A DNA stretch of 64,000 nt from Ignavibacteriota bacterium (GTDB taxonomy: Bacteria > Bacteroidota > Ignavibacteria > Palsa-1295): positions 476,369 to 540,368 of the forward strand of contig CAWBEI010000002.1 in assembly GCA_963787835.1 (NCBI GenBank), read 5' to 3'. Positions 3,448-58,561 of this stretch are shown here, piece after piece. Positions within the stretch are counted from its first letter, which is position 1, and every line of letters begins with the position of its first letter. Position numbers and translations under genes: made by a program. Below the pieces are notes generated by a model. That model worked only from the letters and a program-made list of their open reading frames with translations, was not told the origin of the DNA and made no database searches.

Positions 3448-4104
3448 ATGCCCCGATTCATAAAATATAAATATTGCCTCGTCATCCTTGCGCTTGCAGG
3501 GATAACAGGCTGTGGAATGTTCGGTAAGGCAACGAAGCCTGTTCCGATCGCCTCCCCGTATCCGCCGCTTGCCGGTGTGCTTGATGAAGAGTATCTACAC
3601 TCACCATCCGGGGACATTGCCGGTCAATTTCCTAAGGGGTGGCTGCAAGTTGATATTCAAACCATCCCAATGAATAATGTCGAGGAGGTCTATACCGACC
3701 CAGAGCGCCGTTGGGCTCTGGTTCTTGCGGAGATCCCTTCAACGGCAGAATTCCGCCGCAGCGTAGCCCGCGATGGCATGCTGGCGCTTCCGGACCAATC
3801 TTTTGCCTCAAAATATGCCAAAGCGCCCGGAAATCTTGTCCTGACAAGGCCAGCAGAGGTCTATTCCGAAAATGGAAAGCTATTTGCAAGCTATAACTAC
3901 TCTGAAACAGGAACAGACTCGCTGCACCGAATAGAGAACCGGCAAGTGCTATTTACGACCGGCTCTAAGTTTTACGAGCTTGGAATGATAGAAATCGATA
4001 CGACCGCGAACAGCCAGTCAGAGCGTGTTCAGAACTTCCGCCTGTTGGAGTCTGTTACGGCGTCGCTCGAAGGAGTAGCCGAAATTCGAGCAGACACGCT
4101 TTGA
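3448..4104 (+). CDS. Hypothetical lipoprotein
   Basis: Lipoprotein signal peptide with a lipobox Cys (…LALAGITGCGMF…). Confidence 0.5.
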   Translation: MPRFIKYKYCLVILALAGITGCGMFGKATKPVPIASPYPPLAGVLDEEYLHSPSGDIAGQFPKGWLQVDIQTIPMNNVEEVYTDPERRWALVLAEIPSTAEFRRSVARDGMLALPDQSFASKYAKAPGNLVLTRPAEVYSENGKLFASYNYSETGTDSLHRIENRQVLFTTGSKFYELGMIEIDTTANSQSERVQNFRLLESVTASLEGVAEIRADTL

Positions 4105-4160
4105 AAGGATGAGGGCTGAAGGATAAAGGATGAAGGTAGGAAAATCCAAGAAATTTCCCC

Positions 4161-4382
4161 GTTCATACTTCATAATTCATACTTCATACTTGCCATTGGG
4201 GCGTCGCCAAGCGGTAAGGCACCGCCCTTTGGAGGCGGCATTCGGAGGTTCGAATCCTCCCGCCCCAGCTTTTTGGGAAAAGATGAATTATGAAGTATGA
4301 AGTATGAAAGAATATCGGTATTTTTTCTCGCTTCTTAATCACTAAATTTTCCGGCATTTTTTCATACTTCATAATTCATACT
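4161..4382. repeat. Tandem-heptamer (TTCATAC/TTCATAA) inverted-repeat arms at 4161-4190, 4281-4307 and 4355-4382, bracketing tRNA-Gln and ending 10 nt before the der start codon
   Basis: The outer two arms are in the same orientation. The middle arm is the reverse complement and can pair with either. Confidence 0.7.
4196..4267 (+). tRNA. tRNA-Gln (anticodon TTG)
   Basis: Cloverleaf with a U1:A72 acceptor pair, anticodon stem CCGCC/GGCGG, loop CTTTGGA and T-loop TTCGAAT. CCA is not encoded. Confidence 0.8.
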
Positions 4383-4391
4383 TGCTCAAAA

Positions 4392-5748: not shown

Positions 5749-6576
5749 ATGATTCGAATTGATGGTAAAGATACTTACATAGTATATGCCGACTGGAATA
5801 TTTTTGACGATATTACAAAATCAAGACAGAATGAGCTCGAGAAAGTTGTTGCTTTAGCAAAAGAGAAGAAATCAATTATTTGTCCATATTCCATCATCCA
5901 CCTCCATGAGGCTAGCAACGTCGATCTTACAATTCCCGATGGAGATAAATTAGTTGATATTAACTATAATTCAATCCGTTCTTTCTCAGATTTTTGGCAT
6001 ATCGAGAATGCCGATGCTTCGGATCTCAGAGTGCGAAGAGTCGATCCTTCCGAAATTCTTGACCCACCTTTAGCCCGATCGTTTATCACGAACTTTGAAA
6101 ATGCGATAGCTCCAATTATGGAAGGAATTGCTATAGTCCGTCAAAATGCTAAAGATCATGGATTAGATTCAAAAGTTTTAAATAACACATCGTCAAAAAA
6201 TTTTATATCAAGAGTTGATGATATTCTTGTTTCACAAGAAAATTTAGCAGAATACAGGCATCTTGCACCTGAGGGTTTAACCTTCGATGATCTCTTGGTT
6301 TTAGGCTCAAAAATTGCTGGGACAAATGCCCATCAGGAGCTTGTGCTTGTTTATGTTCTCTCAGACCTGACTGGCTATCACAGTGATCGCGTCGCTGATT
6401 TAAAATCGCTCTGGAGGGACGCCTCCCATGTCGCCTTTGCACGAGGTGCAGATGTTTTAATATCTTCAGATAAGCGTTTGCGACAGAAGGCTACCTTAAC
6501 TTATGAAAAGCTTGGTTGGCCAACCATAGTTCTTGATGCCGTTGATGCTGCAAAATTAATTGAGCAAATCCCTTAA
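5749..6576 (+). CDS. Hypothetical protein in a low-GC island; the C-terminus has a PIN-like signature (…HVAFARGADVLISSDKRL…)
   Basis: The ORF is about 40% GC against ~55% for its flanks, and nothing else recognisable is in it. Confidence 0.5.
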   Translation: MIRIDGKDTYIVYADWNIFDDITKSRQNELEKVVALAKEKKSIICPYSIIHLHEASNVDLTIPDGDKLVDINYNSIRSFSDFWHIENADASDLRVRRVDPSEILDPPLARSFITNFENAIAPIMEGIAIVRQNAKDHGLDSKVLNNTSSKNFISRVDDILVSQENLAEYRHLAPEGLTFDDLLVLGSKIAGTNAHQELVLVYVLSDLTGYHSDRVADLKSLWRDASHVAFARGADVLISSDKRLRQKATLTYEKLGWPTIVLDAVDAAKLIEQIP

Positions 6577-9157: not shown

Positions 9158-9817
9158 CTAACTTCGGATCAGAAAAAAAAGCGCCACAACAGCAGCAGCC
9201 CCAAGCACGACCATAATCGGTTCCAGCGTGTTCGACCAAAAACCGCTCTGCGGAGGTCCGTAGTGCACGTAGCGCGATGCGTTATTCTGTAACTGCATCC
9301 AATCGCTCGGGGTGAGATCAATAGTTACTGTGCGAGCAAGCGTGCGTGAGACCGCGATGGAATTCATCGGCTGCAGGAGTTCGCCTTGCATTCTAATATC
9401 CATACGGGCCTTCCCGGAATCCATCCGCTGAACATTCGCAGAAAGTTGGGATACATAAAAAAGCGGTGCAGAGGCAACCATCGCCTTTTGCACCGCCGTA
9501 AATAATGGAGTATAGGTGCTATCGCCAGCCAGTAATGCCTGGCTACCGTTGATTGAAGGCACCATCGGCATGAGCGAAGACGCAAGCACACTATCTACTC
9601 GAGTAAGTTGCGCACACAATCCTGACGGTAAGGCGAAGATCGTCGAGGTGAAGATCAAGAGATTTAACGCCATTGCGAGGAGAATAAAGCGACCCGCATG
9701 ATCGGTCATGCGTGAAGGAATCTTATTAGACGAAGCAATCTCCGTCTCAACATGCAGCGATTGCTTCGAAAGAATCACTCCGCTTCGCTTCGTGACTCTT
9801 TCTCGCAATGACATCAT
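9158..9817 (-). CDS. Hypothetical membrane protein
   Basis: ORF with N- and C-terminal hydrophobic segments. Confidence 0.35.
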   Translation of the reverse strand: MMSLRERVTKRSGVILSKQSLHVETEIASSNKIPSRMTDHAGRFILLAMALNLLIFTSTIFALPSGLCAQLTRVDSVLASSLMPMVPSINGSQALLAGDSTYTPLFTAVQKAMVASAPLFYVSQLSANVQRMDSGKARMDIRMQGELLQPMNSIAVSRTLARTVTIDLTPSDWMQLQNNASRYVHYGPPQSGFWSNTLEPIMVVLGAAAVVALFFLIRS

Positions 9818-9847
9818 ATCAATGTTTTTATTCTAGCGACGTGTACC

Positions 9848-11173
9848 TTATCCGTAGATGCCTCGCAACTTGAGCGTGCGGGCGACCTTATCGATCGCGA
9901 GGATATACGAGGCAAGCCTTAACGAGACCTTGTAATGAACGGACGTTTCATAGACCCGGTCGAACGCGCCATTCATCACCTCTTCAAGCCGATCGTTGAC
10001 GACTTCAAGGGTCCAATGATATCCCATGCGGTTTTGCACCCACTCGAAATAGCTGACTGTTACTCCACCGGCATTTGCAAGAATATCCGGTACTACAAGA
10101 ATGCCTTTGGATTCCAGGATCGGATCGGCACCGGCTGTGGTCGGACCGTTTGCGCCCTCGACGATCAGTTTCGCCTGAATATTATGCGCATTGCGCTTGG
10201 TGATACGGTCCTCACGAGCGGCCGGAACAAGTACATCACAATCGAGCGTCAGGAGCTGTTCATTAGTGATCTTTTCCCCGCCCTTCCAGCCCTCGAGCAA
10301 GAAATCGTGCGATTCCGAATAGCGAATGGCATTTTCAACATCAATACCACCATCGTTATAATAGGCTCCAGAAATATCTGAGATACCGATCACTCTTGCA
10401 CCTTCGCGAGAGAGCAACTGCGCTGAGATCGAGCCGACATTTCCGAATCCTTCAACGGCAACGGTCGTGTCCCGAGGTTTGAGTCCAATTTTATCCATGG
10501 CACGTAACGCCGCGTGCATCACACCGCGCCCGGTGGCCTCTTTCCTTCCCTTACTGCCACCAAGCACGAGCGGTTTGCCCGTGACGACGCCTGGCTCGGT
10601 ACGCTTCATGTGCATGGACCATGTATCTAAGATCCACGCCATAACCTGCTCGTTGGTGTTAACATCCGGCGCTGGAATATCGCGATCCGGGCCGAAGACA
10701 TCGAGCATATTAGCAGTGTATCTCCGCGTGATCTTTTCGAGCTGCTGGATCGTAAGGTGCCGCGGATCGCAACGGACTCCGCCTTTTGCACCACCGAATG
10801 GGATATCGACGACTGCGCATTTCCATGTCATCCAGGCGGCTAAGGCTTTTACTTCGTCAAGATTTACATCCGGCGCGTAACGGATACCACCCTTGCTGGG
10901 ACCTAAAATATCATTATGAATAACGCGGTAGCCGTCAAAGACCTGAATAGAGCCATCATCCATTTGAATGGGAATAGAAACGATGACGGATTTGACTGGG
11001 GTTTTGAGATATTGATAAATGCCTGGTTCGAGGTGAAGGATCTCTGCTGCGCGATCGAATCGCTGCATCATGGACTCTAATGGATTATCTTTATCAAGGA
11101 TCGGAGCCGGCTCTTTATATACCGATGGAGCGGATTCGGCAGTTTGGGGGAGGTCGTTCGTTGTAGTTGCCAT
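9848..11173 (-). CDS. gdhA: NAD(P)-dependent glutamate dehydrogenase
   Basis: Glu/Leu/Phe/Val dehydrogenase motifs (…GGSKGRKEATGRGV…, …GFGNVGS…). Confidence 0.95.
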   Translation of the reverse strand: MATTTNDLPQTAESAPSVYKEPAPILDKDNPLESMMQRFDRAAEILHLEPGIYQYLKTPVKSVIVSIPIQMDDGSIQVFDGYRVIHNDILGPSKGGIRYAPDVNLDEVKALAAWMTWKCAVVDIPFGGAKGGVRCDPRHLTIQQLEKITRRYTANMLDVFGPDRDIPAPDVNTNEQVMAWILDTWSMHMKRTEPGVVTGKPLVLGGSKGRKEATGRGVMHAALRAMDKIGLKPRDTTVAVEGFGNVGSISAQLLSREGARVIGISDISGAYYNDGGIDVENAIRYSESHDFLLEGWKGGEKITNEQLLTLDCDVLVPAAREDRITKRNAHNIQAKLIVEGANGPTTAGADPILESKGILVVPDILANAGGVTVSYFEWVQNRMGYHWTLEVVNDRLEEVMNGAFDRVYETSVHYKVSLRLASYILAIDKVARTLKLRGIYG

Positions 11174-18172: not shown

Positions 18173-21100
18173 TTACTGTTTTTCGATGGTGAGCTTGCTC
18201 GAGAGCGTGGCGCTGCGGCCGTCGGCTCCGGTGGCGGTCATCTCATAGAGATAGCTGCCGCTCGGTAGCGAGGTCAGGTCGAGCTTCACGTTCTGGGTGC
18301 CCGCCTCGAACGACTGGTTCGTCACCTCGCTGTTGACCACCTTGCCCGTCACGTCCATCACCCGCAGCGTTACCTGCGAGGCTTCCGGAAGCGTGAACGA
18401 TACCTCCGTCACACCGGCCGAGGGATTCGGATAGCTCTGGCCCAGTGTAAAGCCAAGCTGGCTTGCATCCGGACCCAGTTCCACCGTATTCGAGTACGTC
18501 TCCGCACCCGTCTCATCGACCGCCGCAATGCGGTACGTGTACGACTGCGAAGGATCCAGACCCGTGATCGAGGAGGCATAGTCCGTCTGATCCGCGACCG
18601 CCGTCACCGGATGCAGCACCGTCCAGCTGTTCTGGTTCTGCTGCTCCACATCGTAGCGTACCACGTTCGGCAAGCCTACCACATCCCACGTGATCGTCGC
18701 GGCATTACCGCTGACCCGCTGAATGCTCGCACTCACATTGTCGATCGGTAGGATCGTACCATTGTGACTGCGGAAGAAGGCAAAGGCTGCTGCAAGCGTT
18801 CGTGTCGTACCGCTCGTCAATGCATCCTGTGCCGCCGTGCTCGGAGACGTCTGGTGCGGGTTCGCCCAGTCAAAGGCATAGAACACCGTGTTCACCAGGG
18901 GATCGTAATACGATACACCCGCTCCATTGTTCGGATTGCTGTACGAGTAGTTCGAGTACGTGTACGCATACCCGTTGACCTTCGGACCCACCGCAGGCGT
19001 CGTCAGGGATGGCATGATCACGTTCGGTGTCAGGCTCGAGGTCAGATCCGTCGAGCATTCCTCGCAGTCACTCCCGTTCGGATTGACCGGGATCGAAAGG
19101 CTGTCCGCAAACGTCCAGTACGCCGGCTGCTGGCCCACGATCCGGCCAATATACGAGGAACTCGTCGGGTAGTTCGCCACATACTGTGTGTGCATCGTCG
19201 ATTGCATCCATTGCGTATCCGTCACCGGATTGTTCGACTGCACATACCCATTGTAGTAGGCAATGTGCTGGCCCGCGATCACAAGGCTCTTCTTCGCATA
19301 GCTCTGCCCTGCGCCCAGATACCGCGTGATCTCATCCGTCTCCTGCAGCGTCGGACCGCCCTGACCCGTCGACTGACCGGCAACCGGGGCAACGCCCGGA
19401 TCGCCGCTCGACCACACGATCGTCCACCACGGCGTGTAATCGATGATCGTCGTGTTCGGAAGGCCCTTCGGAGCGTTACGGTCGATCGTGTCGAACGGTA
19501 CCCCTAATCGGTTCAACGCCGCGATCACCGAATCACGGTTCTGACGGCCATCCGAGGCCGCACCATTATAGGAAAGCAATACCGCATTCTGCTTCAACAG
19601 GATCGTAAACGTCTTCGTCTGCGAGTTGTTCGCGTCGTTCTGGTCGTTCGGGACGCTCACCGTTACCCGGAACACCCCCGTGCTGTTCGACGCCGTCAAC
19701 GCCGGACCCTGGAACGCGACGCTCTTCGACTCGCCCACCTGCCACGTCAACGGGGCAGACGTGCCCGTATACACCGTCGTCCATACACCATTGACCGAAC
19801 GCTGCACCGTCGCCGTGACCTTCTGGCTATAGACGCCTACGCTCGATAGGTTCTTCACCACGCCCGTGATCCATAACGGACTCTCCGTCGTCACTAAGGA
19901 CGTGTCGCTCGTCTGCGAGAACCCGCCCGGCTGTGAGATCTCTAAGACCGCAAGATCGTTCGTGAACTGGAACCCGTCCCATTCATCCGCCCCGATGTCC
20001 GGGCTCGGATTGTTCTGCGAACGAACGTCTCCGTCGAAATCATGAGCCTCCGACGACGTACCAAGCCACGCGCCGTTGTTCGAGGCCGGACTTTCGATGT
20101 ACGTCAAGGCCGGTGGCATGTGCAACGAATCCACTCCCATCGCTGGCGTACCGAACAACGGATCGCCCGATAACGAGTGGCTGTCCTGACCCACATACGT
20201 ACGCCAGTCGTTCAAACGGCGGAAGTACAGGCTCTGGAATACCGTCCCATACCGTGCGTCGTACTCCGTCACCGAGTCGAAGACGTTCGTGCCACGCAAA
20301 TCGAATACGTTATAGTCCGAACTGATCGAACTTGCATACGGACGAGGTACCTCTAAGTTGTAGTTCGTGTACGGACCGGTGCCCGTGTTCTGGAAAATGT
20401 TGTTCCAGATGAACGCGTGCTTCGCGTATTTGATCGTGATGTTCGATGTCGCGTTGTTCGTCGAGATCGAGTTGTTGAACACCGAATCCTTGTCCGTCGA
20501 ATACGGAACCGTGCCCGACGTCGAAGAGATCGTCGTCATCAGGATCGGGAACACCTTCCCCGCGCTCGTACGAAGGTCTAAGATCATGTTGTTCGTCAAT
20601 CGGTTCTGCGTTACCGCCGGTAACGTCGATTTCACATTCGTCAGACCCGTGCTCGTGTACTGCCACGACGACTGCTGCAGCGCGATCCCATGCGTGTTGC
20701 CCGCTGCCGATGTCATGATACGGATCCGGTTCGCATCGATCCAGGCACCCGTCACGTTACCCGTGTCACCCGCCCACTGAGGGTTCGAAGGCGGGCCGAT
20801 GTACGTGTTCATGTTCGGCTGTACAATGCCATACACATTCCACGTCGCTCCGCCGCCCTGCGGTACTACGTTCGCGTTCACGTTCGAGATCTCGTTGTGT
20901 GAGATCACGATCCCGGTCTCGCTGTTGAACTGGATGCCCGCGTACGATAATGGGTTCGACGACGTACCTACCGTGTTCCGCGTGATCACGTCATTGTAGT
21001 TGCGCCACGTCGTGTACGCACCCTTCACCGGATCGTACGCATCGTGGTACCCGTGATCGTAGATCCCATACTTCGCATTGCCAAGCTCGCAGTTGTTGAC

Positions 21101-23791
21101 CGTGATATTGCTCGTCGCAACCGTATCGTGGATCCCGGATGAATACACGAAAAAGTTGTGCTCGTTGTAGATACGAACCGCCGAGCACGAGTCGTTCGCG
21201 AACATCCCGTTCCCGTGGATCACCAGATCCTTCAGCGTGATGTTGCTTGCACCGTATTCGATACCGAAGACCGCACCCGCCTTCGTCTCGTTGCTGACGA
21301 TCGTCAAGCCGCGCTTCAAGGGCTCTGCCGTCACCTTGTCCGGGGACGGAACCGTCGACGGGTTATAGCCCTCGAAGTTCATATAACCAGGGAAGTGGTC
21401 GCCCATGTAAAAACAGAATGGCTGTGAGCCGCTGAACGTGATCGTCGGATTTTGGCCCGGATATGGGATCCATGTTACCGTCGAACTCGCCGAAAGGCCG
21501 TTGATCTGGCCAAGGTCCACCGCGCCATACGGAGAGGCCACATCGGTGTTCCCGTTCTCCGTGTAGGACGCATCCGTCAGGATCATCCGTACGTTCGCTC
21601 CGATACCGCGGAACCGCATCGTGTCCACCGCCTGATGGATCGTCTGGAACTGGCGCCCTACGCCCACATAGTAATCGCCCTTCAAACGGTCGATGATCGA
21701 AAACTGCGTGCACGACGTGTCGTTCGTCTGGTTCTCGTCGCTGCCCGCGCTGCTGCTGAAGTCTGCGATCGCGCACAGCGTGTAGCATCCCGGCGGGATC
21801 GTCGCGATCGTGTGGTATGCACCCGCGTTCGCTGTCGTTGGAAACTTGAACAGCACCTGACCCTGGTCGATGTTCAAGGCATCTTCTACCGTATCCGACT
21901 GGAATGCCAGCAACCCATCCGAACAACGGCGGATCTGGCAACGGATCTTGAAGCTGAACAGGTCCGATACACCCACCGACTGGAACAGCGCCGATGGCTG
22001 CCACGTCGTCAAATACGGCTTCTCTTCACCCGGCTGAGGGTTGAACACTCCCACCGAGGCCGCATCGTAAAGTGGAAGGATCGGCGTCGGAGATTTCGTC
22101 GTGTCGTCCGCACGCAGCTGATCGTTACCCATGATCGCAATACCGAAGACCGTATCCACGCCCAGCGTCACCGGAGTCCACGTCGGGCTTGAAGGGAACG
22201 CCGTATCGTAATACGCGCCTCTACCCGGACCCTGACCGCTCGAGGAATAATCCGTCACCCCATCCGAGTTGCCACCCATTGGGCCGGAAGGCCAGTATGG
22301 GATCACGACCGTGTCACGGAAGACCACTTTGCCCGTCGCGTCGTGTACCGTTGCCGTCACCGGTACATTGTATTGCGTGTCCGTTCCAAGGTTACGGAAA
22401 CGGATCGAGATCGGCGTCGCAATATCCACCTGAGTACGGGAACCCGCCGGAGGATTGATCACCGAGACCCCCTTGATATCGTTCGGTGGAGCGCACGTCC
22501 ACTCATCCGTCGATTGGTTGTCCGATGGATCCTGATCTGCCGTCGGCTGCAGATTGAACACCGTCATCGTGTCCTCGTAAATACCGTAGCCCGTGCTCTG
22601 CGCTTCGCCGAACTGCGCCGGTTCGCCAGGTGCGAACGCCGGGAACGTGATCGTCGTCTGGCTGAACCCTGCCGGGATCTGCGAGCTGTTCAGCGTGATC
22701 GTCTGATTATACACCTGGCCTACGCCATACTCCGAGATCGTGAAGTTCACCTGGCACGACGTCGAGACCTGGGAACCCGAATTAGCAAGGATCGCCGTTG
22801 GGGTGAAATACGTATTGATCGCCTGTGGAGTTTCGCTGGCAGGATTGGTGATCGTACCGGCCGTCAGATTATATGGCCAAGCAATCGCGATGCGGTAACT
22901 GACCTGCGGGAGCAACGGCTCCGTCGCGTTGTCTTCCGCATATCCGTAATAATCGACGATCGGCTGATTCGATGGGTTGCCGCCGTTGCCGTTCCAGCCA
23001 ATGGTCAGGAAGTCGCCGCCGCCCGATCCCTTAATGCCGGTCAGGCCGCTGTAAGCTTCAATAAGCCAGCCGCCATAGGAGTAATAGTAACCCCAGCTCG
23101 AATTAAATGTACCACTCTGTGGACCATAATTGAATTGGAAACTCGATATACCGCTTTCATAGACAACAGCCTGAAAATCTCCATTGAGGCCGGCCGAAGA
23201 GCCGTATTCATATGCATAAAGGCCGAGGGTCTGCACGACGAGCTCGCGGTTCGGGGCAGAGCCTAAAACGGCATAAGAGCAATTCGGAGCCGGACCATAC
23301 GTGAGGAAGCCCTCGAACGGTGCTAGCTTATAGTTTGGATAATAGGACTCATAAGGAGCATAGTCATATTCACTCTCCAAAAAATCATACTCATAATCCT
23401 CGTACACATAGCCATACTCACTCAGATAAAAAAAATCGGCATCATAATCGTACGCATAGTTGGCGGTCCAAGTGGGGCTAAAGATGACAGAACCGTATGA
23501 ATTAACTTCAAAATTGCCGGTGGTGGCGATCTGTTGGTTTTCAAACCGGAACGCGAACGGCACCGTATAACTCGGAGACATCTGATAATAATATCCCAGA
23601 CCCGAGACCGCCGTTCCGCTGATCGCACTCCAGTTCGGGCCTGAACCCAAACCCTGAGCATCAGGCGTCGTGATCATGTGCACAAGATAGCTTCTCATAG
23701 AGTACGTTTGCGCACGCACGACCCCGGTGGAAATCAAGCCGAACGCAACGAGCATGATTAGGAAAGCGTAGAGTTTTTTCATAGACTTCAA
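18173..23791 (-). CDS. Giant (1,872 aa) secreted T9SS cargo protein: Tyr/Gly/Ser-rich N-terminal region, right-handed parallel beta-helix (pectate-lyase-like), FN3 domain, and T9SS type-A C-terminal sorting domain
   Basis: Signal peptide. Beta-helix-like repeats (…NITLKDLVIHGNG…, …NNCELGNAKYGIYDHG…). An FN3-like block (…RIAAVDETGAETYS…). The C-terminus …LRVMDVTGKVV…GSYLYEMTATGADGRSATLSSKLTIEKQ is the sorting domain. Confidence 0.85.
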   Translation of the reverse strand: MKSMKKLYAFLIMLVAFGLISTGVVRAQTYSMRSYLVHMITTPDAQGLGSGPNWSAISGTAVSGLGYYYQMSPSYTVPFAFRFENQQIATTGNFEVNSYGSVIFSPTWTANYAYDYDADFFYLSEYGYVYEDYEYDFLESEYDYAPYESYYPNYKLAPFEGFLTYGPAPNCSYAVLGSAPNRELVVQTLGLYAYEYGSSAGLNGDFQAVVYESGISSFQFNYGPQSGTFNSSWGYYYSYGGWLIEAYSGLTGIKGSGGGDFLTIGWNGNGGNPSNQPIVDYYGYAEDNATEPLLPQVSYRIAIAWPYNLTAGTITNPASETPQAINTYFTPTAILANSGSQVSTSCQVNFTISEYGVGQVYNQTITLNSSQIPAGFSQTTITFPAFAPGEPAQFGEAQSTGYGIYEDTMTVFNLQPTADQDPSDNQSTDEWTCAPPNDIKGVSVINPPAGSRTQVDIATPISIRFRNLGTDTQYNVPVTATVHDATGKVVFRDTVVIPYWPSGPMGGNSDGVTDYSSSGQGPGRGAYYDTAFPSSPTWTPVTLGVDTVFGIAIMGNDQLRADDTTKSPTPILPLYDAASVGVFNPQPGEEKPYLTTWQPSALFQSVGVSDLFSFKIRCQIRRCSDGLLAFQSDTVEDALNIDQGQVLFKFPTTANAGAYHTIATIPPGCYTLCAIADFSSSAGSDENQTNDTSCTQFSIIDRLKGDYYVGVGRQFQTIHQAVDTMRFRGIGANVRMILTDASYTENGNTDVASPYGAVDLGQINGLSASSTVTWIPYPGQNPTITFSGSQPFCFYMGDHFPGYMNFEGYNPSTVPSPDKVTAEPLKRGLTIVSNETKAGAVFGIEYGASNITLKDLVIHGNGMFANDSCSAVRIYNEHNFFVYSSGIHDTVATSNITVNNCELGNAKYGIYDHGYHDAYDPVKGAYTTWRNYNDVITRNTVGTSSNPLSYAGIQFNSETGIVISHNEISNVNANVVPQGGGATWNVYGIVQPNMNTYIGPPSNPQWAGDTGNVTGAWIDANRIRIMTSAAGNTHGIALQQSSWQYTSTGLTNVKSTLPAVTQNRLTNNMILDLRTSAGKVFPILMTTISSTSGTVPYSTDKDSVFNNSISTNNATSNITIKYAKHAFIWNNIFQNTGTGPYTNYNLEVPRPYASSISSDYNVFDLRGTNVFDSVTEYDARYGTVFQSLYFRRLNDWRTYVGQDSHSLSGDPLFGTPAMGVDSLHMPPALTYIESPASNNGAWLGTSSEAHDFDGDVRSQNNPSPDIGADEWDGFQFTNDLAVLEISQPGGFSQTSDTSLVTTESPLWITGVVKNLSSVGVYSQKVTATVQRSVNGVWTTVYTGTSAPLTWQVGESKSVAFQGPALTASNSTGVFRVTVSVPNDQNDANNSQTKTFTILLKQNAVLLSYNGAASDGRQNRDSVIAALNRLGVPFDTIDRNAPKGLPNTTIIDYTPWWTIVWSSGDPGVAPVAGQSTGQGGPTLQETDEITRYLGAGQSYAKKSLVIAGQHIAYYNGYVQSNNPVTDTQWMQSTMHTQYVANYPTSSSYIGRIVGQQPAYWTFADSLSIPVNPNGSDCEECSTDLTSSLTPNVIMPSLTTPAVGPKVNGYAYTYSNYSYSNPNNGAGVSYYDPLVNTVFYAFDWANPHQTSPSTAAQDALTSGTTRTLAAAFAFFRSHNGTILPIDNVSASIQRVSGNAATITWDVVGLPNVVRYDVEQQNQNSWTVLHPVTAVADQTDYASSITGLDPSQSYTYRIAAVDETGAETYSNTVELGPDASQLGFTLGQSYPNPSAGVTEVSFTLPEASQVTLRVMDVTGKVVNSEVTNQSFEAGTQNVKLDLTSLPSGSYLYEMTATGADGRSATLSSKLTIEKQ

Positions 23792-32900: not shown

Positions 32901-34018
32901 GGCACGAGAAATCTTCCACCATTTACTTGACCGCCATTCGCCCCGTTCCCAAATTGCTGATCAAAACCACCAATGCCCGCAGTACCAAATCCCCCACCTC
33001 CGCCGCCGTATTCAATGAACGGATTAACATCCTCTCCTCCGCCGGAACCGCCACCAAAACCGCCAGATGACGATGGCGATGAACCCAAACTTGCCACACC
33101 GCTCATTCCATAGGGCGCACCGGTACCACCACCACCACCCTGATCATCCGGATTACTTTGCCCTCCCACGACACCGGTCGCAGCGCCTCCTCCGGATGCG
33201 CCAAGCGTATCGAACCCCTCAGAAGCGGAACCGGAATTCCCAAGTGAATCGCTCGGGCAACTTCCTCCGCCAGTGAAACCTATTCCGCCGGCACCGCCCC
33301 AACCATGTCCACCCCCACCGCCACCGGGGCCCCCGTTGATACCTTCGGCATCGACGGAGACCGTCGAATTCGAAAGGCGAACCGGTCCTTTGGAAAGAAG
33401 CACAACCGGAAGGAGTCTTGGGTTGCTCGGGAACGTATCAGGGTTAATTGTTGAAAAAAAGATATGTGCGTTCGTAACGATGAGCGAATCAACCAATAAG
33501 GTATTGCTTCCCGAGAGCTGGCCAAATCCATCACCGATGGTGGTATCCTGTGTGATGGGGCCTAAGTGTTGCAGCGAATCAATATAAAAATTTACCGTGT
33601 CGGACTGCCCCAATAGCGGGCTAAATACAAAAAATGGCACTGACCCAAACGAGGCGCCGGGTACAATAAAGAGGGGGATCTGAAGCACCCTCCCATTCCA
33701 GGTAACGATGGTTGGTCCGACGATCACACGATCGGTGTCCGCAGCATTTAATAGAACAAAGCGTACCGAGGAATCGAGTGCATCATATCCAAACGGACGG
33801 AAGTCGCTCCCGCGCGCAAGAAGTTCCACAACTACATTCATTCCCGGCGCGGCACGGTCCGGACGAATCGTTACTATATGACCAACCTGAGCCTGTGCGG
33901 GAAACGCGAAAGACAGCGCGAGAATCAATAACAACAAATAACCACTAACGAATGATGGATGAAGGAATTTTTCCCCCCATTCACCATTCGCCATTCGTAA
34001 TTCGTAATTCCTTTTCAT
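29999..34018 (-). CDS. Giant (about 1,339 aa) secreted T9SS cargo protein with a Gly-rich beta-helix-like region and multiple ASH / choice-of-anchor-D-like repeats. The exact start is uncertain
   Basis: Signal peptide (…LLLLILALSFAFPAQAQ). Long GGxGG glycine-rich tract. Repeated …DFG(T/N)V.(V/I)G…L.I.N.G… modules. The type-A sorting domain …GRYMLEVSSLGWRVATPFIIDR. The first ~13 codons fall inside a heptamer-repeat element. Confidence 0.8.
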   Translation of the reverse strand: MKRNYELRMANGEWGEKFLHPSFVSGYLLLLILALSFAFPAQAQVGHIVTIRPDRAAPGMNVVVELLARGSDFRPFGYDALDSSVRFVLLNAADTDRVIVGPTIVTWNGRVLQIPLFIVPGASFGSVPFFVFSPLLGQSDTVNFYIDSLQHLGPITQDTTIGDGFGQLSGSNTLLVDSLIVTNAHIFFSTINPDTFPSNPRLLPVVLLSKGPVRLSNSTVSVDAEGINGGPGGGGGGHGWGGAGGIGFTGGGSCPSDSLGNSGSASEGFDTLGASGGGAATGVVGGQSNPDDQGGGGGTGAPYGMSGVASLGSSPSSSGGFGGGSGGGEDVNPFIEYGGGGGGFGTAGIGGFDQQFGNGANGGQVNGGRFLVPLAGGSGGGAGNSVDLGDGTLGGSGGGGGGAIELVSFDSIVAISSTFSARGDSGTSGIEIAAGGGGGSGGAIYLASPKGIRGSSTSINVDGGNAGQPGIDSSGFAGGLGGLGRVRIDGASNMTPAQQLSPVWTEGIAVVPTPTIVNSNGSVLVTGTAQDLTNTLDTIRIFYRTQHTDWEWVDTVRAPAGNWAKWLPLLHDSLLYVVAFVEVNQPSSDPMHFTYEPGWLVSDVSMAIISHSASPFLVVQDTLDFGTVRVGRCKTLALVIRNEGEAPLSIGKGSISGPSGFSLVPDTALRIPPSQSDTLQVEFCPDSAASDVAAITFLSNDPTDSTKVMTLFGTGLVRQDSLVISPSNVNFGNVPIGQCKSDTVSLLSAGADTLYLDRSSWNTPPFSMRLDPPDTAIAPSQKRMLILTFCPTDSGDVRQTQALDDRQDSIELAGVGVSRLASSLGAHDLGPNCLGHTITFTDTISNLGNDTITLQTLQRKEPPQHDSIDVILQPNERYPVQISWVPDSTGRFTDTILYQLSDTILSTILSYRVVGAQVHFDSVVPFHFVCISDSVMAGDSLVNLGLDTLAVSISNLNSGGRFAILDTVSRMLPGQISSLRFSFTPSEPSDTVEMLDTVQLILGDAGCDSTIDIILSGKGIDSGLAAESIDFDSVLVPDCGEDSSLIGNPCGPSVSIDSIAWKSSAFQPASSMPILVPSFGSAEVKFRFCPSDSGTEIDTATLYPNIGQPFKLALRGTGFKEGSLWAHFTISNAAARAGDTVVTTIRLDSSSLKGQYPASVAVTYDPSVVAFISGFTSPAHSVLQDSVAFSETIDFSNPGFIEAISWLTLLGPRASSAIGLKLTTDTSVNIEVTRGSVVVTDCTGLNGQFVPGGNYAIGPVTPDPASESASFGLQLGNDGFVEAGLYDMTGKLITNILAQSFTRGTYTINIPMDALSSGRYMLEVSSLGWRVATPFIIDR

Positions 34019-38459: not shown

Positions 38460-38519
38460 GTGTACACCGGGTTTCAACCCGGTGCGGGATTCTTCACCGG
38501 GTTGAAACCCGGTGTACAC
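38460..38519. terminator. Perfect 25-bp inverted repeat; each arm is itself palindromic. It lies downstream of the 822-aa gene
   Basis: GTGTACACCGGGTTTCAACCCGGTG-cgggattcttc-CACCGGGTTGAAACCCGGTGTACAC. Confidence 0.6.
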
Positions 38520-49139: not shown

Positions 49140-49212
49140 AAAGATGAAATATTAAAGATGAAAGATGAATTTCATCCTCGGTTTCATCTTTCATCTTTAA
49201 TATTTCATCTTT
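49140..49212. repeat. Perfect 30-bp AT-rich inverted repeat built from tandem AAGATGA heptamers, immediately 3' of tRNA-Gly
   Basis: AAAGATGAAATATTAAAGATGAAAGATGAA…TTTCATCTTTCATCTTTAATATTTCATCTTT. Confidence 0.7.
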
Positions 49213-49689: not shown

Positions 49690-49760
49690 CTCGTAGGCGT
49701 AACCTTTAGGTTACGGTGTGATCGCTTCGCCACCGTGACCTAAAGGTCACGGCTACCCAT

Positions 49761-49842: not shown

Positions 49843-49925
49843 AAAATTATGAATTATGAAAGAGGAATTATGAAAATAATTCGCCAAACCAATCTCATAA
49901 TTCGTAATTCATAATTCATAATTTC
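49843..49925. promoter_or_regulatory. Inverted arrays of ATTATGA / TCATAAT heptamers between tRNA-Trp and the secE start codon
   Basis: ATTATGA-ATTATGA-…-ATTATGA … TCATAAT-TCGTAAT-TCATAAT-TCATAAT. Ends 8 nt before the secE ATG. Confidence 0.6.
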
Positions 49926-50720: not shown

Positions 50721-50725
50721 ATCAG

Positions 50726-52060: not shown

Positions 52061-52156
52061 TTATCGTAAACTTGCCATTAGGTGCGATAATAGCCATATA
52101 ATGCCCTTTTTTGAACTAACGGAAGCCCCTTCGGGTTACAGGCGCGCCTTCCAGAA

Positions 52157-52236
52157 AATGATGAATGATGAATTATGAATGATGAAGTGGGAAGGAAGTT
52201 AAAGAAATCAACATAATTCATCATTCATAATTCATA
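52157..52236. promoter_or_regulatory. Inverted arrays of ATGATGA/ATTATGA and TCATCAT/TCATAAT heptamers ending 1 nt before the fusA start codon
   Basis: ATGATGA-ATGATGA-ATTATGA-ATGATGA … ATAATTC-ATCATTC-ATAATTC-ATAATTG. Confidence 0.6.
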
Positions 52237-52237
52237 A

Positions 52238-54343
52238 TTGTCAGCAATGTCACGCAAACAACCTTTAGAGCGCACGCGAAATATCGGGATCATGGCGCAT
52301 ATCGACGCCGGTAAGACCACGACCACCGAGCGCATCCTCTTTTATACCGGCCGGGTTCACCGCATGGGCGAAGTCCACGAGGGCGGCGCAACTATGGACT
52401 GGATGGAACAGGAGAAAGAGCGTGGCATCACGATCACGTCTGCCGCCACAACCTGCACCTGGCGCGATACCGCGATCAACATCATTGACACCCCAGGCCA
52501 CGTTGATTTTACCGTAGAAGTCGAGCGTTCGCTGCGCGTACTCGATGGTGCGGTTGCGCTGTTTTGCGCGGTTGGCGGAGTAGAGCCGCAATCGGAGACG
52601 GTGTGGCGTCAGGCCAACAAGTATGGTGTGCCCCGTATTGCGTTCGTCAACAAGATGGATCGCGTCGGCGCAGACTTTTTTAACGTCATCACGATGATCA
52701 AGGAGCGGCTCGGAGCAAATCCGGTTCCGATCAATCTCCCGATCGGTGAAGGCGAAATGTTCGCCGGCGTCATCGACCTGGTCGAGAACAAGGCGCGCAT
52801 GTATAATGAAAGCTCCCTTGGCACAACGTGGGATGAAATTGAAATTCCCGAAAAGCTGAAAGAACACGCCAAAGAATGGCGTACACGCCTCTTTGAATCT
52901 GTTGCAGAAATTGATGACACGCTGCTTCTGAAATATCTCGAAGGCGAAGAGATCACGCGTGAAGAAGTGATGCGCGTGCTTCGTTTGGCTGTTATCGATT
53001 CGAAGATCATTCCCGTACTTTGCGGGTCGGCGTTCAAGAACAAGGGCGTGCAGGATCTGCTGGATGCCGTCGTGGATTACCTCCCAAGCCCCGTCGATGT
53101 CGGCGCGATCGAAGGGCATCATCTGAATTTGACCGATCACATCAAGCGCGAGCCGGACGATAAAGAAAAATTCGCCTCGATCGCGTTCAAGATCATGACC
53201 GACCCGTTCGTCGGGAAGCTCACGTTCTTCCGCGTGTATTCCGGTACCTTGAAATCAGGTTCCTATGTATTGAATTCCGTGAGCGGACGCAAGGAGCGCA
53301 TCGGGCGCATCCTGCGCATGCACGCGAACCATCGTGAGGATATTGAAGAAGCTTACACAGGCGATATTTGCGCCGCTGTCGGACTCAAGCAAACACGCAC
53401 CGGCGATACGCTCTGCGATGAGGATGATCCCATCGTGTTGGAACGAATGATCTTCCCGGAACCCGTTATTTCGCTCGCCGTCGAGCCAAAAACCAAAGCA
53501 GATTCCGAAAAAATGTCGGAAGCATTACAAAAGCTTGCCGATGAAGATCCTACGTTCAAAGTGAAAACGGATGAAGAGACCGGGCAGACCATTCTTTCCG
53601 GTATGGGCGAGCTGCATCTGGAAATTCTGGTCGATCGCATGAAGCGCGAATTCCGCGTGGAGGCCAACGTCGGTAAGCCGCAGGTCGCGTACAAAGAAAC
53701 GATCCGCAAGAAAGTTACACAGGAAGGCCGCTTCATTCGCCAGTCTGGCGGACGCGGTCAGTTTGGTCACGTCTGGATCGATGTCGAGCCGAACGAGCCA
53801 GGAAAGGGTTACGAGTTCGAGAATGCCATCGTCGGAGGAACGATCCCGAAGGAATATATTTCCCCGGTCAGCGCGGGCATTGTCGAAGCGATGAAGAATG
53901 GCGTGCTCGCCGGGTATCCCGTCGAGGACATCAAGGTTCGTTTGTTCGATGGCTCGTTCCACGAAGTCGATTCGAGCGAAATGGCGTTTAAGATCGCAGG
54001 CTCCATGGCCTTTAAGGAAGCCGCGCGTAAAGCGAATCCCGTTATTCTGGAACCCGTGATGGATGTCGAAGTCGTGACGCCGGAAGATTACATGGGCGAC
54101 GTGATCGGCGATCTCACCAAACGCCGTGGCAAGATCGAAAGCATGACTGCGCGCTCGGATGCACAGGTCGTAAAAGCCTCTGTGCCGCTCTCGGAAATGT
54201 TCGGGTATGCGACGGTGATGCGCTCGATGTCGCAGGGCCGCGCGATCTACTCCATGCAGTTCTCGCGGTACGAAGAAGCGCCGCGCGCCGTGCAGGAACA
54301 GATCATCGAAGCCCAAAAGGGCAAGAGCGGGTCGGGATCGTAA
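52238..54343 (+). CDS. fusA: Translation elongation factor G
   Basis: G1-G5 motifs (…[19 protein letters not shown]…, …DTPGHVDF…, …NKMD…) and full EF-G domains II-V. Confidence 0.95.
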
Positions 54344-56803: not shown

Positions 56804-56830
56804 ATTGAATCTCAGTGGCGAAGCCACGAT

Positions 56831-58067: not shown

Positions 58068-58561
58068 TACGAATATGTCGTGCCTATCGGCACTAAGAAA
58101 ATAATTTGGAATTTTGAGGCGTCTCGGAAAAGTGTCGTATATTAGGTGGTGAGATGATGGGCACCTATATCAATTACGAATTAAGAATTACGAATTAAGA
58201 GTAGGGGCTCGGGGTTCATTGACAATCGTCGGCGGTGGCTTTCGTTATGAACGAGTCCTTTGAGAAAATGGATTTTACTATTCTTTCAGAACAAATGGCG
58301 AAAGCAGCTCGGAAACGAGGGGTCTTCGGGAACTCACAAGAAAAAGAAATGGCACCTATTTCCAATAGAACATTAGTAAGGGTGGTAAACATTTTTACCT
58401 ACGTACCGGGAAACGGGAAGGAGCAAAATTCGTTGTGAAGGTACTCTGGCACGTTTAGCCGGAACATCCTCCATAATCACGACACGTTGCCTTTGATCGA
58501 ACCACCCTCCACTCCCACTGGAAATCCGGTCCCGCCGGATCTGCCACCCGATCCACATATC

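What the first reader, a model, noticed from the sequence alone, without database searches (positions are those of the whole stretch)
4161..4382. Family of AT-rich tandem-heptamer inverted-repeat elements at tRNAs and immediately 5' of housekeeping start codons
Short arrays of 3-5 heptamers (TTCATAC/TTCATAA, AAGATGA, ATTATGA, ATGATGA, ATTACGA) occur as inverted pairs that can form 20-30-bp AT-rich hairpins. They occur in six places. They flank tRNA-Gln and end 10 nt before the der ATG (4161-4382). They sit just 3' of tRNA-Gly (49140-49212). They lie between tRNA-Trp and secE (49843-49925). They end 1 nt before the fusA ATG (52157-52236). They occur upstream of wzz (58173-58200). They occur at the stop/start junction of the OmpA and giant-cargo genes (33979-34012). 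Their placement exactly where a ribosome-binding region would normally be is striking. They may be a lineage-specific leader or regulatory structure, an RNA-processing signal, or traces of a small repeat family.
Basis: seen in the sequence. Interest (0 to 1): 0.55.

Follow-up and report, generated by a model that had tools for sequence, protein, structure and literature searches.

The report
Heptamer-repeat hairpins at gene junctions
Runs of 3-5 copies of a 7-base unit, mostly arranged as inverted pairs that can fold into 25-35-bp hairpins, fill the gaps around tRNA genes and end a few bases before the start codons of essential genes in this uncultured Kapabacteria-like bacterium and its close relatives. 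They are real and evolve fast, they resemble the still-unexplained heptamer repeats of cyanobacteria and giant sulfur bacteria, and their function is not settled.

Summary
The window holds 10-12 period-7 arrays at seven intergenic sites, against about 0.02 expected by chance. Most are inverted pairs predicted to form 25-34-bp near-perfect stems. All three tRNAs are flanked by them. The TTCAT-type arm ends 7-8 nt before the start codons of der, secE, fusA and a small ORF upstream of rpmG.

About 20 relatives (NusG 79-96% identical) carry such hairpins in the same slots, but with different units (AATTATG, AAAGATG, CCTGAGT, GTAACGA, AAGCTTN) or a REP-like palindrome. Arms co-vary. A 3-nt change appears in three arms at once. 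The only indel between two 99.9%-identical strains is two heptamer units. The same roughly 30-nt arm sits at different loci in different genomes. A more distant relative (NusG 61%) has no hairpins.

My reading: this is a lineage-specific, self-homogenising family of palindromic heptamer-repeat elements, REPIN-like in behaviour and STRR/TAACTGA-like in build. It occupies the slots between RNA units and is probably transcribed into long stems that act as processing or end-protecting punctuation. It is not a canonical terminator, a sigma-70 promoter or a Shine-Dalgarno substitute. No transcript data were available, so function is inferred. It is a new variant of a known but unexplained kind.

The parts
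4105..4136 (+). Degenerate 5' arm (AAGGATG-type units). It starts right after the stop codon of ORF 3448-4104 and pairs weakly with 4162-4191.
   Evidence: TRF; folds; aligns with the AAAGATG-type arm of L085.
4162..4191 (+). 3' arm, (TTCATAC/TTCATAA)x4. It ends 5 nt before the tRNA-Gln 5' end and is also complementary to 4276-4308 across the tRNA.
   Evidence: pairs I6, I15, I21.
4197..4269 (+). tRNA-Gln(UUG), with no encoded CCA, flanked on both sides by arrays.
4276..4308 (+). 5' arm (AAGATGA ATTATGA AGTATGA AGTATGA) of the hairpin between tRNA-Gln and der. The stem base begins at 4270, directly after the tRNA.
4361..4383 (+). 3' arm (TTCATAC TTCATAA TTCATAC). It ends 8 nt before the der ATG at 4392. 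The predicted stem extends to position -1.
33945..34013 (-). Hairpin on the sense strand of the OmpA-family and T9SS-cargo genes. The 5' arm is AATTACG AATTACG AATGGCG AATGGTG; the 3' arm is imperfect (TTCATCC ATCATTCG).
   Evidence: (dG -27, z -4.4).
49140..49212 (+). Perfect 30-nt inverted pair, (AAAGATG)n / (TTTCATC)n. It starts 9 nt after tRNA-Gly and ends 7 nt before the GTG of the small ORF 49220-49474.
   Evidence: pair I4; dG -40.1, z -9.
49693..49756 (+). Non-heptamer, REP-like hairpin with GTAG...CTAC feet, in the equivalent slot between rpmG and tRNA-Trp.
   Evidence: pair I11; dG -42.5.
49844..49924 (+). Inverted pair, (AATTATG)n / (TCATAAT)n. It starts 8 nt after tRNA-Trp and ends 8 nt before the secE ATG at 49933.
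   Evidence: (pair I7).
52157..52239 (+). Inverted pair, (AATGATG/AATTATG)n / (TTCATCA/TTCATAA)n. It lies 96 nt after the upstream stop codon and 7 nt before the fusA ATG at 52247.
   Evidence: (pairs I13, I18).
58172..58200 (+). Lone 5'-arm-type array (AATTACG AATTAAG)x2 with no partner. It resembles the 5' arm of the dnaE-upstream hairpins of relatives L082 and L093.
   Evidence: (z -0.7).

Best explanation
These are copies of a lineage-specific, dispersed family of intergenic palindromic elements whose arms are short tandem arrays of a 7-nt unit. The common form is ATGAANN on the 5' arm and NNTTCAT on the 3' arm.

At the DNA level the arrays turn over by slipped-strand gain and loss of whole units. 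Arm-to-arm copying (template switching or gene conversion, within a hairpin and between neighbouring hairpins) keeps the stems near-perfect while the unit sequence drifts, and occasionally carries an element type to another locus.

The elements persist only in the narrow slots between RNA units: from just after a tRNA 3' end or stop codon to a few nt before a tRNA 5' end or start codon. They must therefore be co-transcribed with their neighbours. In the RNA they would fold into 25-35-bp stems. I think these most likely act as punctuation in tRNA-mRNA polycistrons, either as double-strand-specific (RNase III-type) cleavage sites or as 3'/5'-terminal protective stem-loops after RNase P and RNase Z release the CCA-less tRNAs. 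That would leave a short, G-poor, unstructured leader before the SD-less start codons.

Shown: the anatomy, positions, lineage restriction, concerted evolution and unit-number polymorphism. Inferred: transcription through the elements, cleavage, and any benefit to the host.
For: Non-randomness and pairing.

Slot positions:
- The TTCAT-type arm ends 1-11 nt before a start codon in about 20 of 24 cases. The rest end 5-14 nt before a tRNA 5' end.
- In long spacers the hairpin sits at the start-codon end: fusA in the window and L081, speA in L085, dnaE in L082 and L093.
- All 3 window tRNAs are flanked. Helices of at least 18 bp lie next to 15 of 31 tRNAs downstream and 12 of 28 upstream in the clade, against 0 of 17 and 1 of 17 in other bacteria.

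Same slot, different sequence: the tRNA-Trp>secE spacer has a long hairpin in 14 of 15 distinct relatives, built from at least 6 different units or a REP-like unit.

Maintenance:
- The window and L081/L085 are about 88% identical in genes and about 70% at third codon positions. Stems are still 90-100% paired. Arms are 73-90% identical, loops about 43%.
- Co-variation occurs at the odd unit.
- L107 carries AAATTGG/CCAATTT in three arms where its relatives have AAATATA/TATATTT.
- In the window the AGTATGA unit has spread, and both complementary arms follow.

Slippage: L083 and L084 are 99.92% identical, and the only indel is 14 nt in a heptamer array.

Dispersal: the window's tRNA-Gly arm is nearly identical to the tRNA-Gln arms of L085 and L086.

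Not terminators or promoters: there is no U-tract and no sense-strand sigma-70 match, and a canonical terminator exists after fusA. tRNAs lack an encoded CCA. No Rfam family matches at gathering score.
Against: - No transcript or 5'/3'-end data could be consulted.
- Sense and antisense folds are about equally stable, so there is no G.U asymmetry pointing to RNA-level selection.
- A more distant relative manages with 9-27-nt spacers and no hairpins, so the stems are not a general requirement.
- One relative (L095) has a decayed hairpin, and some arrays are lone arms (window 58172; L085 5288), as expected for neutral or selfish DNA.
- A 30-bp stem reaching to within 0-8 nt of an essential gene's AUG should block initiation unless it is cleaved or unwound. 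That step is assumed.
- No cognate enzyme (RNase III, RAYT-like transposase) could be looked for in the genome.
- The locus sampling is biased towards the two neighbourhoods used to fetch relatives.
Confidence: 0.45

Rival explanations
1. The elements are purely selfish or neutral DNA: heptamer microsatellite palindromes (MITE- or REPIN-like) that spread and renew themselves. They appear next to start codons and tRNAs only because these are the only places in a compact genome where about 90 nt can be tolerated. Any RNA hairpin is a by-product with no role.
For: The elements are lineage-restricted and absent from a 61% relative with tight spacers. There is a decayed copy in L095, and there are lone arms. 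Different families, including a REP-like one, are interchangeable in the same slot. The same element occurs at different loci. Unit number is polymorphic. There is no strand asymmetry in folding.
Against: 14 of 15 relatives keep a strong hairpin in the tRNA-Trp>secE slot despite about 30% neutral divergence. In long spacers the element still sits next to the start codon, not at a random position. No target-site duplications were seen at the element ends. Elements sit next to essential, highly expressed genes, where a 30-bp stem at the AUG should be costly if it did nothing.
Confidence: 0.3
2. The start-proximal TTCAT-type array is itself a translation-initiation leader for SD-less genes. It would be an unstructured, G-poor platform for ribosomal protein S1 or another RNA-binding protein, as proposed for TAACTGA repeats in Beggiatoaceae. 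The upstream complementary arm would be a regulatory anti-leader.
For: The array ends 1-11 nt before start codons of der, secE, fusA, dnaE, speA and others. Lone start-proximal arrays exist without a partner (L085 speA). No SD lies in front of these genes. There is a parallel with PMC4679880, where repeats also precede fusA, and with Nostoc heptamers near start codons.
Against: The same arrays also end just before tRNA 5' ends, where no translation occurs. Unit sequences differ widely between relatives at the same gene, including G+C-rich ACTCAGG and CTCGTTA, and a REP-like palindrome can take the place. Most SD-less genes in the window have no array. When paired, the leader would be sequestered.
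Confidence: 0.12
3. The arrays are multimeric protein-binding sites with 7-nt register. They could act on DNA, like the heptad operators of the omega repressor of pSM19035 or the ToxR TTTTGAT heptads. They could act on RNA, like HutP, which reads three UAG triplets spaced 4 nt apart. Either way they would co-regulate growth-related genes.
For: A shared core (M-Y-G-A-R-W-N, i.e. ATGAA / TTCAT) is recovered across arrays with more information than permuted controls (5.1 against 3.6 +/- 0.13 bits). Arrays have 3-5 units. The neighbours are growth-related genes (tRNAs, rpmG, secE-nusG, fusA, der, dnaE).
Against: The arrays are not independent, because they share descent and are copied, so the shared core may be ancestry. 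Units such as CTTAAAG, ACGCGTA, GTGGATA and the REP-like unit do not fit. The unit differs between sites within one genome. No candidate binding protein was identified.
Confidence: 0.08
4. They are ordinary transcription signals: factor-independent terminators for the upstream tRNA or gene, and/or promoters for the downstream gene embedded in the 3' arm, possibly giving leaderless mRNAs.
For: Hairpins directly follow tRNAs, where terminators are common. An array of TTCATAA units places TTCATA and CATAAT 17 nt apart, and one such match was found. The array-to-ATG distance of 7-8 nt would fit a transcription start near the start codon.
Against: There is no U-tract after the stems, and none was called by the terminator scan. 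The only promoter-like match is on the antisense strand. The genome has canonical GC-rich + U-tract terminators elsewhere. Hairpins also sit 2-7 nt upstream of tRNA-Trp and tRNA-Gln, leaving no room for a promoter, so efficient termination there would silence them. G+C-rich arm types have no -10-like hexamer.
Confidence: 0.05

Closest known systems
Intergenic TAACTGA heptamer direct repeats of marine Beggiatoaceae, some Cyanobacteria and Bacteroidetes (MacGregor 2015, PMC4679880)
   Same: Both are 7-nt units in sets of 2-6 copies. Both are almost all intergenic and end within a few nt of start codons, including fusA and ribosomal genes. No SD lies in front of those genes. Distribution is sporadic and lineage-specific. 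Related variant units are interspersed. Function is unknown.
   Different: In Beggiatoaceae the repeats are nearly all direct, with only one indirect repeat in 170 sets. Here 33 of 41 arrays have an inverted partner and form long hairpins. There a single unit is used genome-wide; here there are many units that change between close relatives. The orientation relative to the start codon is opposite (NNNNTGA-type there, TTCATNN-type here). No tRNA association was reported there.
Cyanobacterial STRR / contiguous heptamer repeats (e.g. TTTTGAA/TTCAAAA of Nostoc PCC 7120, bioRxiv 10.1101/2022.06.06.494920; STRR1-3 from my own knowledge), and heptamer-dominated long SSRs (Mrazek 2007, as summarised in PMC4679880)
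   Same: They are heptanucleotide tandem arrays in intergenic DNA near promoters and start codons. Units are gained and lost by slippage. The Nostoc TTCAAAA unit shares the TTCA core. Deleting the repeats changed reporter expression in Nostoc and E. coli.
   Different: They occur in a different phylum. Arrays there are often much longer. They are not described as matched inverted pairs abutting tRNAs. No arm co-variation has been reported.
REP / REPIN elements (Bertels & Rainey 2011, PMC3116915) and hairpin-forming MITEs such as Neisseria Correia elements (own knowledge)
   Same: They are dispersed intergenic inverted doublets that form roughly 100-nt hairpins. There are several families per genome. 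They are co-transcribed with neighbouring genes. Copies are kept similar within a genome. A genuine REP-like family with GTAG/CTAC feet occupies the very same slots here.
   Different: The arms here are tandem heptamer arrays, not a single palindromic REP. They have no GTAG foot and no target-site duplication was seen. No RAYT or transposase was identified. Renewal appears to be by slippage and local copying.
RNase III processing stems: rRNA operon stems, phage T7 intercistronic sites, and 23S rRNA intervening sequences that carry a PF05635 ORF (own knowledge)
   Same: They are long near-perfect stems that bracket functional RNAs and sit between cistrons just upstream of start codons. In five relatives a PF05635 (23S-rRNA-IVS protein / bAvd-like) gene lies inside the array-bounded interval between tRNA-Gln and der.
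   Different: Cleavage is untested here. The stems are AU-rich repeat arrays, not unique sequences. Whether this lineage processes tRNA-mRNA precursors this way is unknown.

Membership tests
Heptanucleotide intergenic tandem repeats (STRR / TAACTGA-type / heptamer LSSR) | Head-to-tail copies of a 7-nt unit, at least 2-3 copies | tested here: met
   TRF reports period 7, 3.0-4.6 copies and 73-100% matches at 12 places. Period 7 is uniquely enriched.
Heptanucleotide intergenic tandem repeats (STRR / TAACTGA-type / heptamer LSSR) | Intergenic location, concentrated just upstream of start codons | tested here: met
   All arrays lie outside credible coding sequence. They end 1-11 nt before start codons in about 20 of 24 start-proximal arrays.
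Heptanucleotide intergenic tandem repeats (STRR / TAACTGA-type / heptamer LSSR) | Same unit sequence as a described family (TAACTGA; STRR1-3; TTTTGAA) | tested here: not met
   The units here are ATGAANN-type and others. None equals a described unit.
Heptanucleotide intergenic tandem repeats (STRR / TAACTGA-type / heptamer LSSR) | Arrays occur as direct repeats without a matched inverted partner | tested here: not met
   33 of 41 clade arrays have an inverted partner within 450 nt. Window pairs are 85-100% complementary.
REP / REPIN | Inverted doublet forming a hairpin, dispersed in intergenic regions, several similar copies | tested here: met
REP / REPIN | Each unit is a short imperfect palindrome with a conserved GTAG foot | tested here: not met
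   The heptamer arms have no internal palindrome and no GTAG. The separate family at 49693-49756 does have both.
REP / REPIN | Cognate RAYT (Y1 transposase) gene in the genome | not testable with these tools
   Only 64 kb of this genome, and 20-kb pieces of relatives, are accessible.
MITE (e.g. Correia, ERIC) | Terminal inverted repeats plus a target-site duplication | tested here: not met
   Inverted arms are present, but no duplicated flank was seen at element ends in the window, L081, L085 or L107-L109.
Intrinsic (factor-independent) terminator | Short G+C-rich stem followed by a U-tract | tested here: not met
   None of the arrays was called by the terminator scan. The stems are AU-rich, 25-34 bp long, and are followed by a start codon rather than a T-run. 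A canonical terminator exists after fusA.
RNase III processing stem | At least about 20 bp of continuous double-stranded RNA in the transcript | tested here: met
   The main helices are predicted to have 19-38 pairs with 0-10 unpaired nt. This is a prediction only.
RNase III processing stem | Staggered cleavage in vivo or in vitro | not testable with these tools
   No RNA-end data were available.
Heptad operator arrays (omega repressor type) | Contiguous 7-bp heptads with consensus WATCACW, bound by a ribbon-helix-helix protein | tested here: not met
   The register and array form match, but the consensus does not. The protein was not tested.
Any curated Rfam family | Score at or above the gathering threshold | tested here: not met
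   Only tRNAs and Acido-Lenti-1 reach threshold. The hairpins give only sub-threshold matches to eukaryotic miRNA precursors.

The most novel reading that the evidence does not exclude
The heptamer hairpins are a domesticated RNA punctuation system specific to this SD-poor lineage. Polycistronic tRNA-mRNA precursors would be cut at perfect repeat-built stems. The 7-nt register would exist because a ring-shaped oligomeric nucleic-acid-binding protein reads or renews the arrays. One candidate is the pentameric bAvd-like PF05635 protein encoded between the arms in five relatives. This would link bacterial heptamer repeats (STRR, TAACTGA) to a dedicated protein partner for the first time.
Probability: 0.1. 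Interest if true: 0.8.

Novelty: new variant of a known kind. Interest (0 to 1): 0.5.

Why it matters
Heptanucleotide tandem repeats next to start codons have been known in cyanobacteria since about 1990, and in Beggiatoaceae and Bacteroidetes since 2015, without an accepted function or origin.

This lineage offers an unusually informative version. The arrays come as matched inverted pairs, so complementarity can be used as a read-out. They occupy the same slots in a graded series of relatives. They show unit turnover, arm-to-arm copying and unit-number polymorphism directly.

That makes two questions testable: whether such repeats are kept by selection on an RNA stem or by a DNA-level copying process, and whether tRNA-mRNA precursors are punctuated by them.

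For annotation, they explain apparently missing ribosome-binding sites and mis-called start codons. Examples are TTG 52238 for fusA and the late start called for EF-G in L081.

Tried and rejected
- An exact-protein look-up of Der found no copy of this genome in the collection.
- The closest species-level genome by EF-G (Ca. Kapaibacterium, 83%, L001) is not syntenic and has no arrays, so it was useless for comparison.
- G.U against A.C asymmetry, tested as sense against antisense fold energies on 20 hairpins, showed no consistent bias and is inconclusive.
- I first took 'the purine arm is always 5' relative to the gene' as evidence of strand-specific function. I rejected this because a perfect palindrome reads the same on both strands, so only lone arms are informative.
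- The sigma-70 promoter idea (TTCATA-N17-CATAAT, leaderless mRNAs) is not supported. There are no sense-strand matches, and G+C-rich arm types lack any -10-like hexamer.
- The intrinsic-terminator idea is not supported.
- The Shine-Dalgarno-replacement idea is weakened by the low SD usage genome-wide.
- The MITE idea is not supported: no target-site duplications were seen.
- I tested whether the PF05635 gene plus arrays forms a mobile cassette. All three close homologues fetched are at the same tRNA-Gln-der locus, so there is no evidence of mobility. There is no remnant of the gene in the window.
- Rfam at a permissive threshold gives only chance-level miRNA-precursor matches.
- The Elhai 2008 paper on small dispersed repeats in Nostoc could not be retrieved.
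Full report
**Observation.** The stretch 4161-4382 reads (TTCATAC/TTCATAA)x4, then 5 nt, tRNA-Gln (4197-4269), (AAGATGA ATTATGA AGTATGA AGTATGA), a 52-nt loop, (TTCATAC TTCATAA TTCATAC), 8 nt, and the ATG of der.
- Tandem Repeats Finder reports period-7 arrays at twelve places in the window.
- My autocorrelation scan finds 10-12 period-7 runs, against 0-4 for every other period from 4 to 12.
- Within about 6.9 kb of crude intergenic sequence there are 7 runs, against 0.02 in dinucleotide shuffles.
- The motif TTCRTNNTTCRTNNTTCRT with at most 1 mismatch occurs 19 times against 0.08 expected. It has no exact match in 80 unrelated bacterial loci.
- The arrays are mostly inverted pairs with arms of 23-33 nt, 85-100% complementary. 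Predicted stems have dG -27 to -40 kcal/mol and z -4 to -9.

Pfam confirms the neighbouring genes: Der, SecE, EF-G, Wzz-like, OmpA-family and a T9SS cargo protein.

- The fusA array ends 7 nt, not 1 nt, before the ATG at 52247.
- The 58172 array is a lone arm, far from the Wzz-like ORF.
- The 33975 site overlaps an ATGA stop/start junction, and the downstream start there is ambiguous.
- A degenerate array (4105-4136) and a non-heptamer hairpin (49693-49756) were missed.

**Anatomy.** Each hairpin fills a slot between two RNA units.
- The 5' arm (ATGAANN-type) begins 0-9 nt after a tRNA 3' end or a stop codon.
- The 3' arm (NNTTCAT-type) ends 7-8 nt before the start codons of der, the small ORF 49220-49474, secE and fusA, or 4-5 nt before a tRNA 5' end.
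- All three tRNAs of the window are flanked, and none encodes CCA.
- tRNA-Gln and tRNA-Trp have a long stem on both sides.
- For tRNA-Gln the upstream 3' arm is also complementary to the downstream 5' arm, so the tRNA can alternatively sit in the loop of a 33-nt stem.

**Organism and relatives.** EF-G, NusG and Der searches place the window in an uncultured Kapabacteria/Ignavibacteriota-related clade. I fetched syntenic loci from about 20 relatives with NusG 79-96% or Der 81-97% identity. I also fetched one more distant complete genome with NusG 61% identity. In 318 kb of clade sequence there are 12.9 period-7 arrays per 100 kb, and 33 of 41 have an inverted partner. In 1.28 Mb from 80 other bacteria there are 0.78 per 100 kb. 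This sampling is biased towards the two neighbourhoods used as bait.

**Comparative results.**
1. *The slot is conserved, the sequence is not.* The tRNA-Trp>secE spacer carries a long hairpin ending 3-12 nt before the ATG in 14 of 15 distinct relatives. Its arms are built from AATTATG, CCTGAGT, GTAACGA, GTAACGC, AGTGCTN or AAGCTTN units, or from a REP-like palindrome (CCGTGACCTnnAGGTCACGG with GTAG/CTAC feet). That same REP-like unit is found in the window upstream of tRNA-Trp. One relative (L095) has a decayed copy.
2. *Stems stay paired despite divergence.* The window and its closest long relative (L081/L085) are about 88% identical in conserved genes and about 70% at third codon positions. 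Their stems remain 90-100% paired. Two of four orthologous hairpins are unalignable. In the alignable ones the arms are 73-90% identical and the loops about 43%.
3. *Arms change in concert.* The 'odd' unit AAATATA/TATATTT of L085, L086 and L108 is AAATTGG/CCAATTT in three arms of L107. RNAalifold counts 6 pairs with double-sided changes. At the orthologous junction after tRNA-Gln, L086 has AAGATGA-AGTATGA-AAGATGA-AAGATGA and the window has AAGATGA-ATTATGA-AGTATGA-AGTATGA, and both complementary arms follow.
4. *Unit number is polymorphic.* Two strains that are 99.92% identical over 20.5 kb differ by a single indel, which is two units of a (GGTTCGC)n array.
5. *The same arm occurs at different loci.* The arm GCAAAGATGAAATATWAAAGATGAAAGATGAA sits after tRNA-Gly in the window but around tRNA-Gln in L085, L086 and L108. 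Whole elements including the loop are duplicated on both sides of tRNA-Gln.
6. *Start-codon proximity is general.* Across the clade the TTCAT-type arm ends 1-11 nt before a start codon in about 20 of 24 cases. These include dnaE and speA in divergent intergenic regions and fusA in a 186-nt spacer, so the elements sit at starts rather than stops.
7. *The tRNA association is specific to the clade.* Long helices flank tRNAs far more often in the clade than elsewhere: 15 of 31 and 12 of 28, against 0 of 17 and 1 of 17.
8. *A more distant relative lacks them.* The 61% relative has tRNA-Tyr/Gly/Thr/Trp spaced 9-26 nt apart, a 27-nt spacer with AAGGA before secE, the classical secE-nusG-rplKAJL-rpoBC order, and no hairpins or heptamer arrays.

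**Tests of function.**
- The arrays are not called as intrinsic terminators. The only sigma-70-like match is antisense.
- A canonical GC-rich + U-tract terminator follows fusA, so the genome does use ordinary terminators.
- SD-like motifs are rare in the window (8 of 46 genes by a crude count), so the arrays do not replace a normally present RBS.
- Sense and antisense folds are equally stable, so I cannot tell RNA-level from DNA-level maintenance.
- Rfam has no matching family.
- A shared unit core, M-Y-G-A-R-W-N, is recovered with 5.1 bits against 3.6 +/- 0.13 in permuted controls. Because the arrays are related by descent and copying, this may be ancestry rather than a binding motif.

**Best explanation (confidence 0.45).** This is a lineage-specific dispersed family of palindromic elements built from heptamer arrays.
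- It is renewed at the DNA level by slippage and arm-to-arm copying. The concerted change, the unit polymorphism and the inter-locus identity are shown. The copying mechanism itself is inferred.
- It is tolerated or retained only in the slots between RNA units, and is therefore co-transcribed (inferred).
- In RNA it would fold into 25-35-bp stems (predicted). These most plausibly serve as punctuation of tRNA-mRNA polycistrons, either as RNase III-type cleavage sites or, after RNase P and RNase Z release the CCA-less tRNAs, as 3'- and 5'-terminal protective stem-loops. That would leave short G-poor leaders for SD-independent initiation (inferred by analogy).
- The analogies, from my own knowledge, are rRNA and phage T7 processing stems, 23S rRNA intervening sequences, REP elements and Correia elements.
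- In five relatives a PF05635 (23S-rRNA-IVS protein / bAvd-like) gene lies inside the array-bounded interval between tRNA-Gln and der. It is at the same locus in all of them, so mobility is not shown.

**Rivals.**
- Purely selfish or neutral repeats: 0.30.
- A translation-initiation leader, as proposed for TAACTGA repeats: 0.12.
- Heptad-register protein-binding arrays on DNA or RNA: 0.08.
- Ordinary terminators or promoters: 0.05.

**Comparison with what is known.** The closest described phenomena are the TAACTGA heptamer direct repeats just upstream of start codons in Beggiatoaceae, Cyanobacteria and Bacteroidetes. Those also precede fusA and also lack an SD (PMC4679880). Also close are the cyanobacterial STRR and contiguous heptamers such as TTTTGAA/TTCAAAA in Nostoc (bioRxiv 10.1101/2022.06.06.494920). 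In genomic behaviour the elements resemble REPINs (PMC3116915). The present elements differ in several ways:
- They are matched inverted pairs.
- They abut tRNAs.
- They use many rapidly changing units.
- They are interchangeable with a REP-like element in the same slot.

I therefore rate this a new variant of a known but unexplained kind. It is not a member of any curated family.

**Limits.** There are no transcript data and no whole genome of this organism. The choice of loci is biased, start-codon calls are heuristic, and several literature analogies rest on memory. The decisive work is a whole-genome census in the long relatives' contigs and RNA-end mapping.

Noticed in passing
window 49693-49756; also L089, L090/L091, L092, L104 (tRNA-Trp>secE spacer) and L093 ~5940-5990: A second hairpin family is REP/REPIN-like. 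Its arms contain the palindrome CCGTGACCTnnAGGTCACGG with GTAG...CTAC feet. It occupies the same slots as the heptamer hairpins and replaces them in some relatives.
   Followed up: partly
window 38460-38519, 54491-54604, 54706-54926, 56773-57016: Further G+C-rich palindromic repeat families occur in long intergenic regions, for example 25-nt arms that are 100% complementary and the repeated TGGGCTGCGAGTACTCCGTCGCTCCGCGACT. This genome is rich in intergenic palindromes of several kinds.
   Followed up: no
window 58047-58094 and ~54383-54410: The Rfam Acido-Lenti-1 hit (39 bits against a 37-bit threshold) contains CCCCGGACTCACGTCCGGGG. This is the exact reverse complement of the hairpin of the canonical terminator after fusA (CCCCGGACGTGAGTCCGGGG + TTTTG). 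The hit may be a repeated terminator-like hairpin and not an sRNA.
   Followed up: partly
L085 9610-9963, L086 ~9590-9940, L107 10001-10354, L108 10001-10396, L109 8637-8984: A 115-131-aa PF05635 (23S rRNA intervening-sequence protein / bAvd-like four-helix bundle) gene sits between the tRNA-Gln hairpin and der, bounded by complementary heptamer arrays. It is absent from the window, with no remnant; there the arms are only 52 nt apart.
   Followed up: yes
L083 14755-14805 vs L084 14755-14791: A (GGTTCGC)n array differs by exactly two units between two strains that are 99.92% identical over 20.5 kb. It is the only indel between them.
   Followed up: yes
window 18173-23791 and 24131-29791: Two near-identical giant ORFs (1872 and 1886 aa) lie in tandem on the minus strand, with an offset of about 5,958 nt and the same internal repeats. 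This looks like a recent tandem duplication upstream of the T9SS cargo and OmpA genes.
   Followed up: no
window 49220-49474 (and L081 9069-9335, L082, L083): A conserved small ORF of about 84 aa with two CxxC motifs (zinc-ribbon-like) lies between tRNA-Gly and rpmG. It has no Pfam match and starts with GTG 7 nt after the hairpin.
   Followed up: partly
window 50166-54343 vs L111 9797-20561: In this clade nusG is followed by an IgGFc-binding-like gene and fusA, instead of the classical rplK-rplA-rplJ-rplL-rpoB-rpoC order seen in the 61% relative. The operon is rearranged in the same lineage that carries the hairpins.
   Followed up: partly
window 52100-52150 and L081 11935-11985: A block GCCCTTTTTTGAACTAA...GGCCCTTCGGGTTACAGGCGCGCC, including a UUCG-type tetraloop hairpin, is conserved upstream of the fusA hairpin in both genomes. 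It could be a promoter or leader element.
   Followed up: no
window 57969, 58160, 58352: The motif GGCACCTAT occurs three times in the 590-nt non-coding region that also holds the lone heptamer array and the Acido-Lenti-1 hit.
   Followed up: no
window 52238-52249; L081 12079 vs called start 12123: The heptamer arrays mislead start-codon calling. The longest-ORF rule picks TTG 52238 inside the array for fusA. The gene caller used for L081 starts EF-G 15 codons too late.
   Followed up: yes
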